Part shown: positions 33,001 to 39,000 of the stretch, piece after piece
Numbering within the stretch: position 1 is the first letter of the stretch
Layout: the number at the start of each line of letters is the position of its first letter
DNA from: an uncultured bacterium
Lineage (GTDB): Bacteria > Zixibacteria > MSB-5A5 > GN15 > FEB-12
NCBI GenBank assembly: GCA_965372795.1
Contig: CBDVDR010000007.1
Location: forward strand, 32,001-96,000
Direction of reading: 5' to 3'
DNA length: 64,000 nt
Made by a program: the position numbers

Positions 33001-36000
33001 CTATTTGTTTCAGCTATTGGAGCAGTTGCCGGTTTCATATACTACTACAAAACAAATTTCTTCTTCTATTACTCTATCGTACCATTTATTTCTGATAAAT
33101 TCACATTGGATAATTACAGTATGTTTTCAATTGCTCATCTTTTGGATATGATCAATCTACTAGTGCTTGTCATCCCGGGAATAGGGTTATTATTGCTAAG
33201 TTTGTTCACGACCAAAATATCAATTCTATTAAAAGAGAGTCATTATTTCTTTTTGATGTTATTGTCTGTTTCTGTTTTAGGTGCGTCATTCATTTTTGAT
33301 CCAAAACTTGGAATGGCAAGAGACTGGGATTTGTTCTCATATATTGCGATTCCTATTTCAATTTTCTTTTACTACTATTTAATTCGTAATCGAGCAAATT
33401 TCCCTACTAACGTAACAATAGTTTTATTATCAATTTTCCTGGGATTCTTTTCTCTTTCAGCCAGAGTTATCAGTATCAATCAACCGGAAGTAGCAGTTGA
33501 GAATTTTACCGACTATATCAACTTAGATAAAGGTAAAAATCGAAATGCGAGATATCTTCTGGCAACTTACTACAAAAACATGGGTGACAATTTAGCAGTT
33601 AAAGAAATAGTAAAAAAATGGAATACCGATTATCCGGAAAGAGTTGTATTTCAAACCGGGTTTGCCTTAAAGAATGAAGGTAAAATAGTTGAAGCATCAG
33701 GATATTTTCAAAAAGTAATGCAAATGAACCCATCCTATATTGATGCCTGGATTAATTATGGTGAATGCTTAACTAATTTAAAAAGATATAGCGAAGCAAT
33801 CCAATATTTAGAGGTAGGGGTTGGCTTAAGCCCCTATGATGCGAGTGGTTATAATAACCTTGGGGTTTGTTTTATGGGTACTGCTCAATATGATAAAGCA
33901 GAAAAAGTACTAAAAACTTGTGAGTCTTTGCCACAAGTAACTTTTGTGACTTTGTATAATCTAACTACTTTGTATCGATTGACAAGAGACCACGAACTGT
34001 ATCTGGAGTATTTAATAAAATCAGGGACTCATAAAGAAGCAGGCCTTTTTGCATTAAAAGAACTTGGTAATTATTATTTAGTAACAGCCCAATACCAGAG
34101 AGCTAAACAGATTTATTTAAGAGGTATTAATCTTGGCATGGATCAACGTTTTGAAGATTCCTTAAGACAAAATTATCCAATGCTTGGGTTATAAATTTCA
34201 AGATTAGTTTAGGCTGCTATAGGATTCGTATTTTTCAAGTAGTGCTTTAAAGCGAGGGATGTTTTGTAACGGCGCAAAAATCGGATCGGCTCTTAAATAT
34301 TTAACTGAGCTCCAGGATGGAATTGATAAGAGCAACTCAAGTTCTTCAATTGCATTATCATATTCTCCAACGATTGTGTATATAGTAGCCATGACCATGA
34401 CTGCGTCCGGTCCTCACCAGTGGCAGTCGTCAACCGACATCAACTCCTTGGATGTTTTACCCGCTTTTATAGCTTCTTCTTTATTACCCATTAAGGCATA
34501 TGTGAGACCAAGTTCTGCAAAGGCATGAAACTCGGGTTCACCTTGATCAATAATATTAGTTAAGATAATCCTTGAAGAATCATAATAAATTAGAGCCGAA
34601 TCATGATGTCCTGAGAGTTCATATAGATGGCCTATGTTCATCTGTATAATATGAGGTGATCGCTCAGCAATCGTTCCTTTAATATTGCTTAACTTTCGAA
34701 TATTCTCTATTTCAATTTGAGGGTCATATAAATCAGGAATGTATCTCCACAGCCCAAGTGAGGTACCTGAAGTCAGTTCATAGGTTGATATTTCAGCCAA
34801 TCCAACTTTTTCATATAATGTTTTAAATTCTTCAACATCGTATTCGATATTACCATAACGCAGAAGGTTAATTAAAACTTTCAGATACGCAGCATCAGCA
34901 TTATTAGGATCCAGAACCAGAGCACGATTTATATAATTATCCGCTTCTTCGTAATTCCTAGTCATACTTAAACTATTGGCTATGTAAAAGTATCTTCTAT
35001 CAGACAAGGGGTCAATTCGGATAGCTTCTTCAAATTTTTCATTCGCTTCATCCCATTTTCCCTGACGCATTTTAACAATTCCAATAGCCTGTGAGAGTTC
35101 GGCATTGCTGGTAAGTTCGGATTTGGCTCTATTAAATGATGACAATGCTTTTTCGTAATCTCTTTCGATATAATTGGAATAGGTACCCATCGCAATTTGA
35201 GCGGTTGGCAAAGTAGGATCAAGAGCCAGTGCTTTTTCAGCAGCTTTTAAAGCTTCATTTTTATGATATTTTCCATTGACCGATGTAAAATGAAAATTAA
35301 AGGTCGAATGATTCATTGATTTTTGAGCCCAGGCTAAAGCGAAATTTGAGTCAAGGGCTATGGCTGAGTCAAACATATTTATAGATCCCTGAAAATCAGA
35401 CATCCGTAAATTATGACTTGAAATCTCAAGACCCCGAAGATAAAAATTATACGCCGCCATATTTGTAGTCGGAGCATAATCAGGAGCCAGTTTATCTGTT
35501 TCCACTAAAGTCAAGCCTAAGGCGATTACAATCTGTTCAGCTATTTTTGATTGAACATCAAATATTTGCACTAATTGTTGCTCATAAATATCCGACCACA
35601 TCAGATAATTATCACTGGTTTTGGTCAATCTGGGGGTAATGCGAATACGGTCGACTTCACCGGATTTATCCCAACGTATAGTCGCCTCAAGAACATAATC
35701 GGAATTGGTTTCCTGTCCGATTTGTTCAATGCTCTTGTCAGTCTCTTTAAATTTATCAGCAGTTCTTGGTGAAATAACACGCAGTCCCTTTACAGTCGAC
35801 AAACGTGAACTGATTTCATCACGAATACCATCGGAAAAATATTCATCCTCTCCGGCACCAAGATTCTCAAACGGTAACACAATCAATACTGGCGGTTTAT
35901 TTACTATTTGTTCGGGTTGATTATAAAAATACATAAAACCGATTACAATTATAAGAAAAACTGCAACCGCTGACATTTTGAAATATAAATTTTTAAATGA

Positions 36001-39000
36001 CGTCTCATGTGTTCTACCAGAAGGATAGGTATGTGATTGCGAATCATACATGAGTCTTTTTAAGTCAGCAATGACACCCTCGGCTGACTGATATCTGAGT
36101 TCTTTGTCTTTTTCGATAAGTTTTAAAATAATATCCTGCAACTTATCTGGAACGTCTGATTTATACCTGTTAATTGGTTCCGGATTACTTTCAATAATAG
36201 CTTTTAATGTCGCGCCTTCATTATCACGCTTAAAAGGAGTTCTTCCGCATAATAATTCATACAGCACGATACCCAATGAAAAAAGGTCCGAACGGTGGTC
36301 GATATCTCTCCCTGAAATTTGTTCGGGTGACATATATGAAACAGTTCCAAGGGTCGAACCGGTTTTGGTTAGTTTATCATCACCCTCTGTGGCAGCTAAA
36401 CCAAAATCCAGCAGTCGTATTCTATTTGTCCTATCAAGGGCAATATTAGCAGGTTTTATGTCTCGATGGGTAATGCCATGTCGATGTGCTTCCCCCAGTC
36501 CCTGACATATTTGCAAGGCGAATTCGATGATAGCATCTGCCGGCTGTGGTTTCTCTTTTATGAAATAACGCAGCGAATGTCCATCAATATTTTCCATAAC
36601 AAAAAAAGGACGACCATTAAACTCACTTACTTCGTGGATAGTAACAATATTTGGATGGTTCAGCTTTGCAACAGCTTGAGCCTCTCTTTGAAATCGTTTT
36701 TTAATATCATCATTATTTAAGAATTGTGTAGGAAGAAATTTCAGGGCAATATTTCGTTTCAGTTTTGTATCTTCAGCCAGATAAACCTCACCCATACCAC
36801 CGGCACCAATTTTTTCAATTATTTTGTATTGATGAACCACGGTTCCTTTAGTCAGAACAACAACTGTTCGGGTATTGTCATCTTTTTGATTCATTATACC
36901 TTCACGATCAGGTTTACACTTTTTAGCTTAAGACTATACTCCAATTTTGAGTGAATTCAATATACAATATCTTTATTTTCAACCAAGACTTTATTGATAA
37001 ATTTTACCTACATTACTAAAATCTACGATAGGAATAAGTTATTTTCTGAAAATATTGAGATATATACTAATCAGATATTTTTATATTAAGTATTTGAATG
37101 AAAGATGCTTATAGAGATTAATATTGGGTCATAAATTATATGTATTCTAATTGTAATCAATCAATCTTTGAGTTATAATCGACTAAAAGGGCTAAATAAA
37201 AGCCTTGTGTGATTCGTCAGTAATTGATATAATTTAGTAACTCAAACCGGGAATAAATATGTCAAGAAAATTTACTAGAAGATCATTTATCAAGAGTAGC
37301 GCCACTCTCGGAGCGGCAACCCTTGCCGGCGGTTATCTTTTGCCGGAAATATTAAATGCCACCGAAATCACCAAACTCGACATAGCGTCAGTAGCAGGAA
37401 CCGACTATTACCAGGATACTATTGAATCAGTCAGAATGCTTGGCGGGATGAACAAATTTATTACAAGCGGTGATAAGGTTGCCATCCTTCCGAACGCAAT
37501 TGGGAAATATCCGGCGACAACCGTCAATCCGTTAGTTTTATTGGCAACTATTGCGATGTGCTTTGAAGCGGGCGCAAAAGAGATAAACCTTATTAAGGGA
37601 GTTTCTGAAAAATATTGGAACGGAAAAAATATCACCGATGATCAAATGGCTGCCTTTCAGAGATGCACTATCTCTAAACAGGAATTTGATATCATGCCAA
37701 TCAAGGATGGAATAGCACTCAAGGAAGCGCATATCAGCAAAGATCTGATGAATGCCGATAAATTTATCAATCTCGCTCATGTGAAACACCACAGCGGGCC
37801 ACAATTTACCGGCCTGCTTAAAAATTTGATGGGTGCCTGTCCTCATAACCCTACCAATAAATTTTTCCATTTTGGCTCGAATGCCTCTGATTGGTATGGA
37901 GATATAGATTTTCTTTCACAGTGTGTGGCAGATTTGAATATTTTGAGGAAACCTGACCTCTGTATTGCCGATTCGACCGAATTCCTGATTACTAACGGAC
38001 CATTCGGTCCCGGTGAAGTTAAAAAATCAGACACAGTTACTGCCGGGTTGAATCCGGTAGCAGTCGATGCCTTTTGTACCAAATTCCTTTCCTTAAAAAT
38101 TGAGGCTGTTGCGATGATCAAAATGTCGGCTCAGCATGGTCTGGGCGAAATGAATCTTGATAAACTGAACATTAAAGAAGCGATTGTCTGAAAAACTCAT
38201 GAAAATATTAATTCTTATAATAGGTTTAGGCGTCCTTTGGAGTGGATGTAGCCAGAATTGCTCAAACAAAAGTATTGGCAGGTATTTTCCTGATAATAAC
38301 GAAGTTGTTGGATGGGTGGCAAATGACACCGTACGGACATTTGTTGGTCAAGATCTTTTTAAATTGATCAACGGCGGAGCCGAGCTGTATCACGAAAATG
38401 GGTTTGTTCAAATTGTCACTTTGACTTTTGGAAACAGTACCAACCAGGAGATCAGCATTGAAATTTATGAGATGGGCACCCCCGATGGCGCAACGGATTC
38501 CTATATGAGCAAAATTTCACCCGCAGGAAAAAAGGTCGAAATAGGCGACGAGGCTCTCCTGAACAGTTATTATTTAAATTTCAGACAGGGGAAATATATT
38601 GTTACGCTGGTCGGATATAGCGATGACACTGAAACAATTAGTGGACTAAATGGGCTGGCAAAGGTCATTTCTACAAACATTGATTAGTTTAGTTCTATTT
38701 TATTAATAAAAATTAAATCTTTTATAAACTTTTTCCGAATAGTATAGTTATAAGTTCGTAATACTAATTTCAAATTAATATTTATAATAATAAGAAAACA
38801 ATGCTTTGGAACTTAAATTTAAGCAAATAGAAAACTTAGACGATTTTCTACCAATCAAAGAGCAGTGGAACACTTTGGTTAAATCAACTCAATTGGACCA
38901 TGCCTTTTTTAGACATGAATGGTTTTCCTGCTGGATAAAACATATTAAACCAAAAAGCCAGTTAATGATTCAGACTGCCTGGAAGGGCGATCAACTGGTG

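What a model noticed while it worked through the whole genome (the two positions that open the first line are those of the whole stretch)
34204..36894. Selenocysteine-containing membrane Ser/Thr protein kinase with a C-x-W-U motif in its TPR sensor domain
The gene at C7:66204-68894 (minus strand) is one 896-codon reading frame with an in-frame TGA (C7:66414-66416) that is read as selenocysteine: N-terminal Hanks-type Ser/Thr kinase, one transmembrane helix, and a TPR domain that carries Cys-His-Trp-Sec-Gly-Pro 70 residues before the C terminus. It founds a selenoprotein family (Sec-containing protein kinase) that is not in current lists of prokaryotic selenoproteins.
Evidence so far: Frame open across a single TGA with coding potential on both sides; Pfam Pkinase 1.6e-52 and TPRs upstream, NCBIfam TPR_END_plus (res 835-887) downstream of the TGA, so stopping at TGA would cut the domain. 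In 60 relatives the 10 best matches outside G000, from 8 genomes of 8 genera, each have exactly one in-frame TGA and no other stop (4 weaker matches also have one TGA, 3 have other stops, the other listed matches none). Aligned the TGA sits in one column in 9 of 9 sequences with it (G000 and 8 relatives): C[HF]W-U-[GS]P; a more distant paralogue has DAYIGP and no stop. 14 nt after the UGA all 9 can form a 6-bp hairpin (consensus GGUCAU-GGUC-AUGGCC; loop GGUC, once GGGC), which resembles t [...]
(Added by a program. Inside this text positions count along the whole contig: contig position 32,001 is position 1 of the stretch shown here. "Call 12" and the like, gene names such as g00115 and contig names such as C1 are that model's own, and its searches are not shown. 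The text may have been shortened before it was handed on; [...] marks where a part breaks off. The agent that wrote the report below was given it as the finding of a first reader that could run no searches.)

Follow-up and report, generated by a model that had tools for sequence, protein, structure and literature searches.

The report
Selenocysteine in a membrane sensor kinase
A membrane protein kinase of a Zixibacteria genome almost certainly carries selenocysteine in its outward-facing sensor domain, which makes it a selenium-containing signalling receptor of a kind missing from a 2026 published list of bacterial selenoproteins.

Summary
Window 34204-36894 (-) is one 896-codon frame with a single in-frame TGA at codon 827.

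It is very probably a real selenoprotein:
- The genome has tRNA-Sec, selA, selB and selD, and tRNA-Sec is its only UGA-reading tRNA.
- 46 distinct relatives keep C-x-x-U at this place.
- The 64-70 codons after the TGA are under purifying selection.
- A 6-bp hairpin with a GGUC loop starts 11 nt after the UGA. It pairs in 276 of 276 cells and shows compensatory changes. Non-TGA paralogues lack it.
- The TGA genes form one clade.

I found no orthologue with Cys in place of Sec.

Neither a kinase nor a TPR family appears among the 119 families of a 2026 review.

Function is inferred only. The Cys-x-x-Sec pair sits at the start of a helix in the periplasmic TPR domain, so redox or soft-metal sensing that controls the kinase is the likeliest role.

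This scan had already noted the same family in another genome (e1-980780).

There is no experimental proof of selenium insertion.

The parts
34204..36894 (-). Whole gene: 896 codons plus TAA. The product is a Hanks kinase, one membrane helix, and an extracytoplasmic alpha/beta-plus-TPR domain containing selenocysteine.
   Evidence: Translation with TGA=U gives one frame with a single internal TGA.
36082..36828 (-). Cytoplasmic Hanks-type Ser/Thr kinase domain (residues 23-271).
   Evidence: Pfam Pkinase 1.6e-52, 179 bits against a cut-off of 31.7. GAGGMGEV, IALK, HRDIKPAN, DFG and SPE are readable in the translation.
35920..35988 (-). Single transmembrane helix (about residues 303-325).
   Evidence: This is the only stretch whose 19-residue Kyte-Doolittle mean exceeds 1.6 (windows starting at residues 300-309).
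35521..35901 (-). Extracytoplasmic alpha/beta subdomain (residues 332-458), the first part of a CadC-periplasmic-domain-like module.
   Evidence: The AlphaFold2 model has strands and helices at model residues 5-127. Model 2-329 aligns to CadC 195-511 with Z 19.9, rmsd 4.4 over 301 residues.
34207..35460 (-). TPR superhelix (residues about 479-896) that carries the CxxU site near its end.
   Evidence: Pfam TPR models. The model is all-helical from model residue 148 onward, with mean pLDDT 88.8. Foldseek hits are TPR proteins.
34414..34425 (-). Cys824-His825-Trp826-Sec827 (CxxU) motif. The TGA is at 34414-34416.
   Evidence: The motifs among 46 distinct relatives are CHWUGP 41, CFWUGP 2, CHWUSP 1, CHLUGP 1 and CSPUHS 1. 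In the model these are the last four residues of the loop before helix 497-510, in a block of pLDDT 95.
34387..34402 (-). SECIS-like hairpin AGUCAU-GGUC-AUGGCU. The loop is at 34393-34396 and begins 17 nt after the UGA.
   Evidence: Sequence read. RNAalifold predicts the same hairpin independently. 276 of 276 cells are paired in 46 sequences. The closing pair is GC 40, AU 3, GU 2, UA 1.
34234..34392 (-). TPR_END_plus capping domain (residues 835-887), encoded entirely after the TGA.
   Evidence: NCBIfam NF047558, 1.8e-14, 53.4 bits against a cut-off of 32. Where dS is measurable, dN/dS of this stretch is 0.08-0.20.

Best explanation
The gene encodes one 896-residue selenoprotein. During translation the UGA at codon 827 is read as selenocysteine by tRNA-Sec and SelB. 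SelB is recruited by the small hairpin with a GGUC loop that lies in the coding sequence, with its loop 17 nt after the UGA. This hairpin also fixes the peptide Val-Met-Val-Met-Ala.

The product is a single-pass membrane receptor. An active Hanks-type Ser/Thr kinase sits in the cytoplasm. On the periplasmic side are a CadC-like alpha/beta-plus-TPR module and further TPRs. In the last inter-repeat loop a Cys-x-x-Sec pair sits at the N-terminus of a helix.

Shown by comparison:
- recoding of the UGA
- constraint on the downstream peptide
- constraint on the RNA
- a single origin of the Sec clade from paralogues that have Asp-Ala-aromatic-x at this loop

Inferred only: the Cys/Sec pair acts as a reversible selenenylsulfide switch, or as a soft-metal or metalloid ligand site, that reports the periplasmic state to the kinase. 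I put about 0.9 on the selenoprotein part, about 0.4 on redox sensing and about 0.3 on metal or metalloid sensing.
For: Sec machinery:
- tRNA-Sec scores 68.9 bits against a cut-off of 47. selB, selA and selD are all over their cut-offs, and selD itself has one TGA.
- ARAGORN finds 46 tRNAs. The only one that reads UGA is tRNA-SeC(tca).

TGA is otherwise a normal stop: 10 of 18 of these genes end in TGA 64-70 codons later.

Conservation of the TGA:
- The 15 best matches outside G000 in 100 relatives each have one TGA.
- In the phylum search, 29 of 285 genomes (G000 included) have a TGA-bearing match, and the top 18 of the 56 listed rows all do.
- 15 of 15 further TGA-bearing matches that I fetched have C-x-[WL]-U.
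- There are 46 distinct sequences in all.

Translation continues past the TGA:
- 18 of 18 genes keep 64-70 open codons after it.
- pN is 0.11-0.41 against pS 0.40-1.04. dN/dS is 0.08-0.20 in the five pairs where dS is measurable, which matches the upstream control.
- The TPR_END_plus domain lies after the TGA.

RNA constraint:
- GTC is 34 of 34 hairpin Val codons, against 30% of Val codons elsewhere in the same genes. GGA is 17 of 17 at the codon after the TGA, against 25% elsewhere.
- The hairpin is paired in 276 of 276 cells. It has four closing-pair types, and 0 of 500 shuffles reach its covariation score.
- In L054 the hairpin sits 6 nt further from the UGA and is still intact.
- The hairpin motif is present in 14 of 14 TGA genes and 0 of 16 paralogues at the aligned place.
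- Two other selenoprotein genes of this genome have GGU or GGUC loops: selD, and a thioredoxin-like UxxC lipoprotein.

One clade: 17 Sec rows lie on one side of a branch with SH-aLRT 100.

Topology and structure:
- There is one hydrophobic helix. Cys occurs only at 130, 216 and 824, plus U827.
- CHWU is the end of the loop before a helix, in a block of pLDDT 95.
Against: - There is no experimental evidence of selenium in this protein.
- No Cys-for-Sec homologue was found, although nearly all accepted families have one (statement in PMC12013277).
- The core hairpin is only -3.5 to -5.8 kcal/mol, and the consensus is -6.67 kcal/mol. Both are weaker than the -7.5 limit of the bSECIS model.
- Single-sequence MFE folds often choose other pairings. 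In the window's own sequence the MFE fold does not contain the hairpin.
- Four of the six stem pairs never vary, so the covariation rests on two pairs.
- Part of the 46-sequence set was collected with a pattern that fixed GTCATGGNCATG. Only columns 15 and 28-30 are unbiased in those rows.
- For the function, the domain is helical TPR and not a thioredoxin fold. His is Phe or Ser, and Trp is Leu or Pro, in a few members. No partner or conserved neighbour gene was found.
- Two relatives look decayed: one has a TAG 35 codons after the TGA and one has a frameshift.
Confidence: 0.85

Rival explanations
1. The Cys-His-Trp-Sec site is a soft-metal or metalloid binding site (for example Cu(I), Hg, Cd, Ni, arsenite or selenite) and not a redox switch. 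The kinase would report metal load in the periplasm.
For: Cys, His and Sec are all good ligands and lie within four residues. C824 is the only Cys of the extracytoplasmic part, and it pairs with U827. Several listed selenoprotein families with CxxU, CU or UxxU motifs are metal-binding or mercury-related (Table 1 of PMC13188914).
Against: His is not invariant: it is Phe in 2 and Ser in 1 of 46 sequences. No metal transporter or resistance gene lies beside the gene.
Confidence: 0.3
2. The Sec codon acts mainly as a translational gauge of selenium supply. With selenium the full receptor is made. Without it translation stops at UGA and yields a receptor lacking its 69-residue cap. Signalling would then follow selenium status.
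For: The UGA lies just before the terminal capping domain. Paralogues have a variable residue at the Sec column, where R, D, S, A and I are all common. The chemistry of that position is therefore not needed for the fold.
Against: The Cys three residues upstream is kept in 46 of 46 sequences, even where the residues between differ. This points to chemistry by the pair and not to gating alone. A gate would not need CxxU.
Confidence: 0.1
3. The TGA is a true stop. The 826-residue protein is the product, and the downstream 69 codons are a relic or a separate small gene (the 64-codon ATG ORF at 34204-34398).
For: Public annotation ends these proteins at the TGA. 15 of 40 database hits are 812-826 residues long and end in ...CHW. 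The hairpin is thermodynamically weak.
Against: - All 18 genes first examined keep 64-70 open codons in the same frame, and 32 of the 34 pattern-collected loci keep 62-70.
- dN/dS of 0.08-0.20 equals the upstream control.
- The downstream part aligns with the C-termini of uninterrupted paralogues and forms the TPR_END_plus domain.
- The TGA column itself is fixed.
Confidence: 0.03
4. The UGA is read through by something other than Sec, such as near-cognate Trp, Cys or Arg insertion, a suppressor tRNA or a changed genetic code.
For: Nothing here measures which residue is inserted.
Against: No UGA-reading tRNA other than tRNA-SeC is among the 46 found. TGA ends 10 of 18 of these same genes. A conserved hairpin with the GGU(C) loop seen in selD and a UxxC thioredoxin-like gene of the same genome lies at SECIS distance. 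CxxU is a recurrent selenoprotein motif.
Confidence: 0.02

Closest known systems
Bacterial selenoprotein genes decoded through an in-frame bSECIS (consensus model of Zhang and Gladyshev as summarised in PMC13188914; E. coli fdhF type)
   Same: In-frame UGA, with a stem-loop just downstream in the coding region. The apical loop is 4 nt with G in its first two positions, the stem is 6 bp, and the loop lies 17 nt (23 nt in one member) after the UGA. All of these are inside the model's limits. The GGUC loop of E. coli fdhF is my recollection and comes from no call.
   Different: The core hairpin energy of -3.5 to -5.8 kcal/mol misses the model's -7.5 limit. No Cys-containing homologue was found. 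Both standard search strategies would therefore tend to miss it.
Selenoprotein O (SELO, PF02696)
   Same: A selenoprotein with a protein-kinase-like domain and a CxxU motif near the C-terminus. Its authors discussed a kinase regulated through a redox-active Sec (PMC3281104, passages). A bacterial Sec-containing SelO-like protein is listed in PMC13188914.
   Different: No SelO family (PF02696) is among the matches of P0001; the match is canonical Pkinase. The protein here is a membrane receptor with the Sec outside the cell in a TPR domain. SELO has many Cys homologues, whereas this family has none found.
Non-Sec paralogues: the kinase-TM-(alpha/beta)-TPR receptor family expanded in Zixibacteria
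   Same: Same architecture and 31-39% identity over the extracytoplasmic part. They end in the same LLSIPS...DPLRDHPRFQALLEKY C-terminus. There are up to 15 matches per genome.
   Different: At the site they carry [KE]-D-A-aromatic-x-G-P, with no Cys, no TGA and no hairpin. The Sec genes are one clade apart from them.
Periplasmic sensor domain of E. coli CadC (PDB 3ly7, 3ly8)
   Same: Model residues 2-329 (protein 333-660) align with CadC 195-511 at Z 19.9, rmsd 4.4 over 301 residues. This covers the alpha/beta subdomain and the helical part. That CadC uses a periplasmic disulfide as a switch is my recollection and comes from no call.
   Different: Identity is 11%, and Z is tied with generic TPR hits at about 19.5. 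CadC is a ToxR-like DNA-binding regulator and not a kinase. The CxxU lies in the extra TPRs beyond the CadC-like part.
[quoted passage not shown]
   Same: A recently predicted selenoprotein that is an envelope receptor and not a classical oxidoreductase. It also has a CxxU motif.
   Different: It is an outer-membrane beta-barrel transporter with Cys homologues, not a signalling kinase.

Membership tests
Bacterial selenoprotein (UGA-Sec with bSECIS) | The genome encodes tRNA-Sec, SelA, SelB and SelD. | tested here: met
   All four are over their cut-offs in G000. selA is found in 96 of 101 relatives (G000 included), including every genome with the TGA kinase.
Bacterial selenoprotein (UGA-Sec with bSECIS) | An in-frame UGA is conserved at one alignment column in orthologues, with conserved coding sequence on both sides. 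| tested here: met
   14 of 14 in one column. 46 distinct sequences carry C-x-x-U. Downstream dN/dS is 0.08-0.20, equal to the upstream control.
Bacterial selenoprotein (UGA-Sec with bSECIS) | bSECIS geometry: loop of 3-9 nt with G in its first two positions, stem of 4-16 bp, loop 16-37 nt after the UGA. | tested here: met
   Loop GGUC or GGGC, 6-bp stem, 17 nt spacing (23 nt in L054).
Bacterial selenoprotein (UGA-Sec with bSECIS) | bSECIS minimum free energy of -7.5 kcal/mol or lower. | tested here: not met
   The core hairpin is -3.5 to -5.8 kcal/mol and the alignment consensus is -6.67 kcal/mol.
Bacterial selenoprotein (UGA-Sec with bSECIS) | Homologues exist with Cys at the Sec position. 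| tested here: not met
   0 of 40 hits. 0 of the top 150 of 5104 representatives. The best stop-free match in 285 genomes of the phylum is at paralogue level, 108 bits and 45% identity. Searches were limited to what each tool lists.
Bacterial selenoprotein (UGA-Sec with bSECIS) | Selenium is demonstrated in the protein. | not testable with these tools
   This needs 75Se labelling or mass spectrometry.
Hanks-type Ser/Thr protein kinase (Pfam PF00069) | A profile match over the curated cut-off, plus the catalytic motifs. | tested here: met
   179 bits against a cut-off of 31.7. GAGGMGEV, IALK, HRDIKPAN, DFG and SPE are readable.
TPR_END_plus (NCBIfam NF047558) | A domain match over the curated cut-off. 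| tested here: met
   53.4 bits against a cut-off of 32, residues 835-887.
Thioredoxin-fold CxxU/UxxC oxidoreductases | A thioredoxin fold around the motif. | tested here: not met
   No thioredoxin family is among the Pfam matches. The model is helical TPR around residues 488-510. Only the CxxU motif and its place at a helix N-terminus are shared.
Selenoprotein O (PF02696) | A profile match to the SelO family. | tested here: not met
   No SelO family (PF02696) is among the 22 Pfam families matched at E up to 0.01.
CadC periplasmic sensor domain | A shared fold of the alpha/beta subdomain plus the helical bundle. | tested here: inconclusive
   Z 19.9, rmsd 4.4 over 301 of 323 residues, but 11% identity and tied with generic TPR rows.

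The most novel reading that the evidence does not exclude
This is the founding example of selenium-based signal perception in bacteria. A receptor kinase's periplasmic TPR domain uses a Cys-x-x-Sec switch that arose de novo, together with its SECIS, from a loop with no Cys. The family has no sulfur-only counterpart because only selenium chemistry (fast, reversible, resistant to over-oxidation) does the sensing job. The same UGA may also tie receptor output to selenium supply.
Probability: 0.3. Interest if true: 0.85.

Novelty: new variant of a known kind. Interest (0 to 1): 0.72.

Why it matters
Almost all known selenoproteins are oxidoreductases or metal enzymes. A selenocysteine in the outward-facing sensor of a signalling kinase would extend selenium biology to signal perception.

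It would also give a natural case in which Sec arose where no Cys existed, and a sequence-defined minimal SECIS whose RNA needs visibly dictate a peptide (VMVMA).

On the practical side, the family is consistently cut short in public annotation: 15 of 40 database hits end at ...CHW. It also escapes both usual detection routes, because there is no Cys partner and the hairpin is weak. Selenoproteome counts for Zixibacteria are therefore too low. Relatives whose records are labelled Calditrichaeota, Neomarinimicrobiota or Ignavibacteria may be affected too.

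Tried and rejected
- Rfam scan of window 34150-34550 at E up to 10: only two chance-level hits, a Tetrahymena snoRNA and Chlorobi-RRM.
- Neighbouring genes (hydrolase, a 674-residue membrane TPR protein, DUF362, DUF6599, acetyltransferases, a deacetylase): no selenium, redox or metal theme and no operon partner. The TPR neighbour is only weakly similar, E 0.003.
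- Phylogenetic profile of selA against the TGA kinase: uninformative, because selA is nearly universal in the relatives, 96 of 101.
- The search for related loci with the single C-terminal protein in genome contigs: 2 loci. One was already held and one is an unrelated Gemmatimonadetes TPR protein.
- Single-sequence MFE folding as a SECIS test: inconsistent, so I relied on the alignment instead.
- BSepDB supplement: the stored copy is cut. 'kinase' and 'TPR' occur 0 times in the held part, but its family table (S2) may not be included.
- I considered a DNA pattern search for a CHWCGP-coding Cys form. I dropped it because thousands of chance matches are expected.
- The careful tree search did not finish in 288 s, so the tree quoted is the quick IQ-TREE one.

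Full report
**Observation**

Window 34204-36894 on the minus strand reads as 896 codons with one internal stop. This is TGA at codon 827 (window 34414-34416), and the frame ends in TAA. Table 11 splits it into ORFs of 826 and 64 codons.

Pfam finds a Hanks kinase at residues 23-271 (1.6e-52) and TPRs at 544-816. NCBIfam TPR_END_plus (53.4 bits, cut-off 32) covers residues 835-887, wholly after the TGA. The kinase motifs GAGGMGEV, IALK, HRDIKPAN, DFG and SPE are intact in the translation.

Only one segment is hydrophobic enough for a membrane helix, at about residues 300-327. With the kinase in the cytoplasm, everything after it is extracytoplasmic. Cys occurs only at 130 and 216 (kinase) and at 824, three residues before U827.

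**Can the organism make Sec, and is TGA otherwise a stop?**

G000 is 98.65% complete. It has:
- tRNA-Sec (68.9 bits, cut-off 47), selB and selA together on contig 19 (selA and selB adjacent, tRNA-Sec about 11 kb away)
- a selD that itself contains one TGA

ARAGORN finds 46 tRNAs, and the only UGA reader is tRNA-SeC(tca).

Ten of the 18 Sec-type kinase genes first examined end in TGA 64-70 codons after the internal one. TGA is therefore a working stop in these genomes.

Names on database hits place the organism in the Zixibacteria.

**Conservation**

- In 100 relatives, the 15 best matches outside G000 (13 genomes) each carry exactly one TGA. Lower-scoring matches carry none.
- In the alignment, 14 of 14 TGA-bearing loci have C[HF]W-U-[GS]P in one column. 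The 16 stop-free paralogues have [KE]-D-A-aromatic-x-G-x there. Both groups share the C-terminus LLSIPS...DPLRDHPRFQALLEKY.
- Across the 285 genomes held for the phylum, 29 (G000 included) have a TGA-bearing match at E up to 1e-25. These fall in families f1, f3, f4, f5, f9, f11 and f20. The top 18 of the 56 listed rows all have the TGA.
- Of the regions I fetched from that search, 15 of 15 TGA-bearing ones have C-x-[WL]-U.
- A DNA pattern scan of one genome per species found 34 loci. Of these, 32 keep 62-70 open codons after the TGA, one has a TAG 35 codons on, and one is frameshifted.
- Record titles name Zixibacteria, Calditrichaeota, Neomarinimicrobiota, the FCB group and 'uncultured Ignavibacteriales'. 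Some of the last are in the same GTDB family as G000, so I do not trust those labels.
- In all there are 46 distinct sequences: CHWUGP 41, CFWUGP 2, CHWUSP 1, CHLUGP 1, CSPUHS 1. The Cys at -3 is invariant.

**Translation continues past the TGA**

For codons 10-58 after the TGA, nonsynonymous differences are 0.11-0.41 per site while synonymous ones are 0.40-1.04, which is mostly saturated. In the five pairs where dS can be computed, dN/dS is 0.08-0.20. The last 49 codons before the motif give the same picture.

**The hairpin**

The consensus after the UGA is GGA CCN NNN NNG GTC ATG GTC ATG GCC. RNAalifold on 18 sequences predicts exactly one helix, columns 15-20 with 25-30, and the loop GGUC.

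On 46 distinct sequences:
- 276 of 276 cells pair.
- The closing pair is GC 40, AU 3, GU 2, UA 1.
- The third pair is UG 42, CG 2, UA 2.
- 0 of 500 shuffles reach the covariation score, and slid controls pair at 1-65%.

Synonymous sites are frozen. GTC is 34 of 34 hairpin Val codons against 30% elsewhere in these genes. GGA is 17 of 17 at the +1 codon against 25% elsewhere.

In the divergent paralogue L054 the motif is C-S-P-U. The hairpin (GGCCAU-GGUC-AUGGCC) sits 6 nt further downstream and is intact. This separates the RNA element from a fixed peptide position.

At the aligned place the hairpin motif is present in 14 of 14 TGA genes and 0 of 16 paralogues.

The geometry fits the published bSECIS limits quoted in PMC13188914 (section 5): a loop of 3-9 nt with G in its first two positions, a stem of 4-16 bp, and 16-37 nt from the UGA.

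A crude scan of G000 looked for TGA codons with open frames on both sides and a GGT-loop hairpin. It gave 15 candidates. Three look like real selenoprotein genes: this kinase, selD (8-bp stem, loop GGU) and a thioredoxin-like lipoprotein. The last has W-U-T-W-C, a 9-bp stem and loop GGUC, and matches Pfam Thioredoxin at 9e-16. The rest look like noise. The loop type is therefore the genome's own.

**Weak points of the SECIS case**

- The core hairpin is only -3.5 (window) to -5.8 kcal/mol, and the consensus is -6.67 kcal/mol. Both fall short of the model's -7.5.
- Single-sequence MFE folds often prefer other pairings, including in the window.
- Four of the six pairs never vary.
- The 34 pattern-collected loci had GTCATGGNCATG fixed by the search.
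- Rfam has no matching family.

**No Cys form**

- Of 40 hits in the 5.8-billion-protein search, 15 are 812-826 residues long and end exactly at ...CHW, that is, annotators cut them at the TGA. None has Cys at the Sec column.
- Of 5104 hits among 1.84 billion representatives, I examined the top 150. The three with the Cys column conserved (P0042, P0043, P0015) all end at CHW. The rest have D (102 of 150)-A-aromatic-x, with x variable.
- In the phylum search the best stop-free match is at paralogue level, 108 bits and 45% identity.
- A quick IQ-TREE tree of the last 560 residues (33 rows; the careful search did not finish) puts all 17 Sec rows on one side of a branch with SH-aLRT 100. One genome (G035) has four Sec paralogues in different subclades.

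The simplest history is a single gain of Cys, Sec and the hairpin in a loop that had neither Cys nor Sec, followed by duplications.

**Structure**

AlphaFold2 on residues 332-896 with 29 aligned sequences gives pLDDT 88.8 and pTM 0.89. C824-U827 (model residues 493-496) are the last four residues of the loop between helices 474-487 and 497-510, in a block of pLDDT 95. Sec is thus the residue just before a helix N-terminus, the same kind of place as the CxxC of thioredoxins, but in a TPR context.

Foldseek finds TPR proteins. VIA-align ranks the CadC periplasmic domain first: Z 19.9, rmsd 4.4, 301 of 323 residues, model 2-329. This is tied with generic TPR rows. The CxxU therefore lies in the TPR extension beyond a CadC-like sensor module.

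**Mechanism**

Shown by comparison: UGA recoding directed by a local hairpin, and one full-length receptor.

Inferred: the Cys/Sec pair is a reversible selenenylsulfide switch, or else a ligand site for a soft metal or metalloid, and its state is passed through the membrane to the kinase.

The site replaces a loop that is itself conserved across thousands of paralogues, so it is likely a working part of the sensor. An exported UxxC thioredoxin-like selenoprotein in the same genome is a conceivable redox partner. That is speculation.

**Literature**

- I read all of Table 1 of the 2026 review PMC13188914 (119 families; it lies within parts 1 and 2 of section 7) and its SECIS section. It has no kinase and no TPR family, and the word 'kinase' occurs only for PSTK.
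- Passages of deep-Sep (PMC12013277), BSepDB (PMC13326102) and the GOS paper (PMC2398784) show none.
- The BSepDB supplement held here is cut and may lack its family table.
- Full-text searches for selenocysteine with 'Hanks-type' gave 0 papers. Searches with Zixibacteria gave 3, of which 2 were listed, and neither title or abstract concerns this family; I did not open them. Searches with sensor kinase and periplasmic terms gave nothing relevant.
- SELO is a kinase-like selenoprotein with a C-terminal CxxU and many Cys homologues (PMC3281104, passages). It is a different family.
- No NCBIfam model specific to this family appears among the 25 best matches shown, of 38 found.

**Earlier notes of this scan**

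e1-980780 describes the same thing in another genome. e1-7456078 and e1-4844887 describe the exported thioredoxin-TPR selenoprotein. They are AI notes, not independent evidence.

**Verdict**

This is a genuine and widely conserved selenoprotein gene, with probability about 0.9. It is a new selenoprotein family with standard decoding but an unusual host protein and no Cys counterpart. Its function is still inferred.

Noticed in passing
G000 contig C1:118270-119163 (-), locus L110 (outside the window): A second gene with an in-frame TGA that table 11 cuts in two: a lipoprotein-like thioredoxin-fold plus TPR/YfiO protein. It has the active site W-U-T-W-C and a 9-bp hairpin with a GGUC loop 23 nt after the UGA. 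Pfam Thioredoxin matches at 9e-16.
   Followed up: partly
window 34406-34413 (-); columns 4-8 of alignment A3: GGACC directly after the UGA is nearly invariant (at least 90% of the 46 rows of A3 at each of columns 4-8). GGA is used at the +1 codon in 17 of 17 of the first genes, against 25% elsewhere. GACC could pair with either GGUC copy, which is the alternative stem that MFE folds often choose. I could not tell whether this is a lower SECIS stem, a switch or stop-codon context.
   Followed up: partly
loci L022, L023, L026, L028, L030, L038, L043, L045, L048, L049: In many relatives a second kinase-TPR paralogue lies directly downstream of the first, as a tandem array. The window's gene stands alone.
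   Followed up: no
L060/L097 (G203) and L061: Two Sec-type genes look damaged. One has a TAG 35 codons after the TGA with conserved sequence continuing behind it. The other has a frameshift soon after the hairpin. These may be decay or assembly error.
   Followed up: no
window 32170-34194 (+): The convergent neighbour is a 674-residue protein with TPRs at 503-583. It has no specific similarity to the kinase's sensor domain (E 0.003).
   Followed up: partly
G000 contig C4:204174-205094 (+), locus L019: selD is itself a selenoprotein here (C-A-G-U), with an 8-bp hairpin and a GGU loop.
   Followed up: partly
record titles of L056-L089: Several bins titled 'uncultured Ignavibacteriales' hold sequences identical to loci from genomes that the genome tool places in the same family as G000. 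Those NCBI labels probably do not reflect the true phylum.
   Followed up: no
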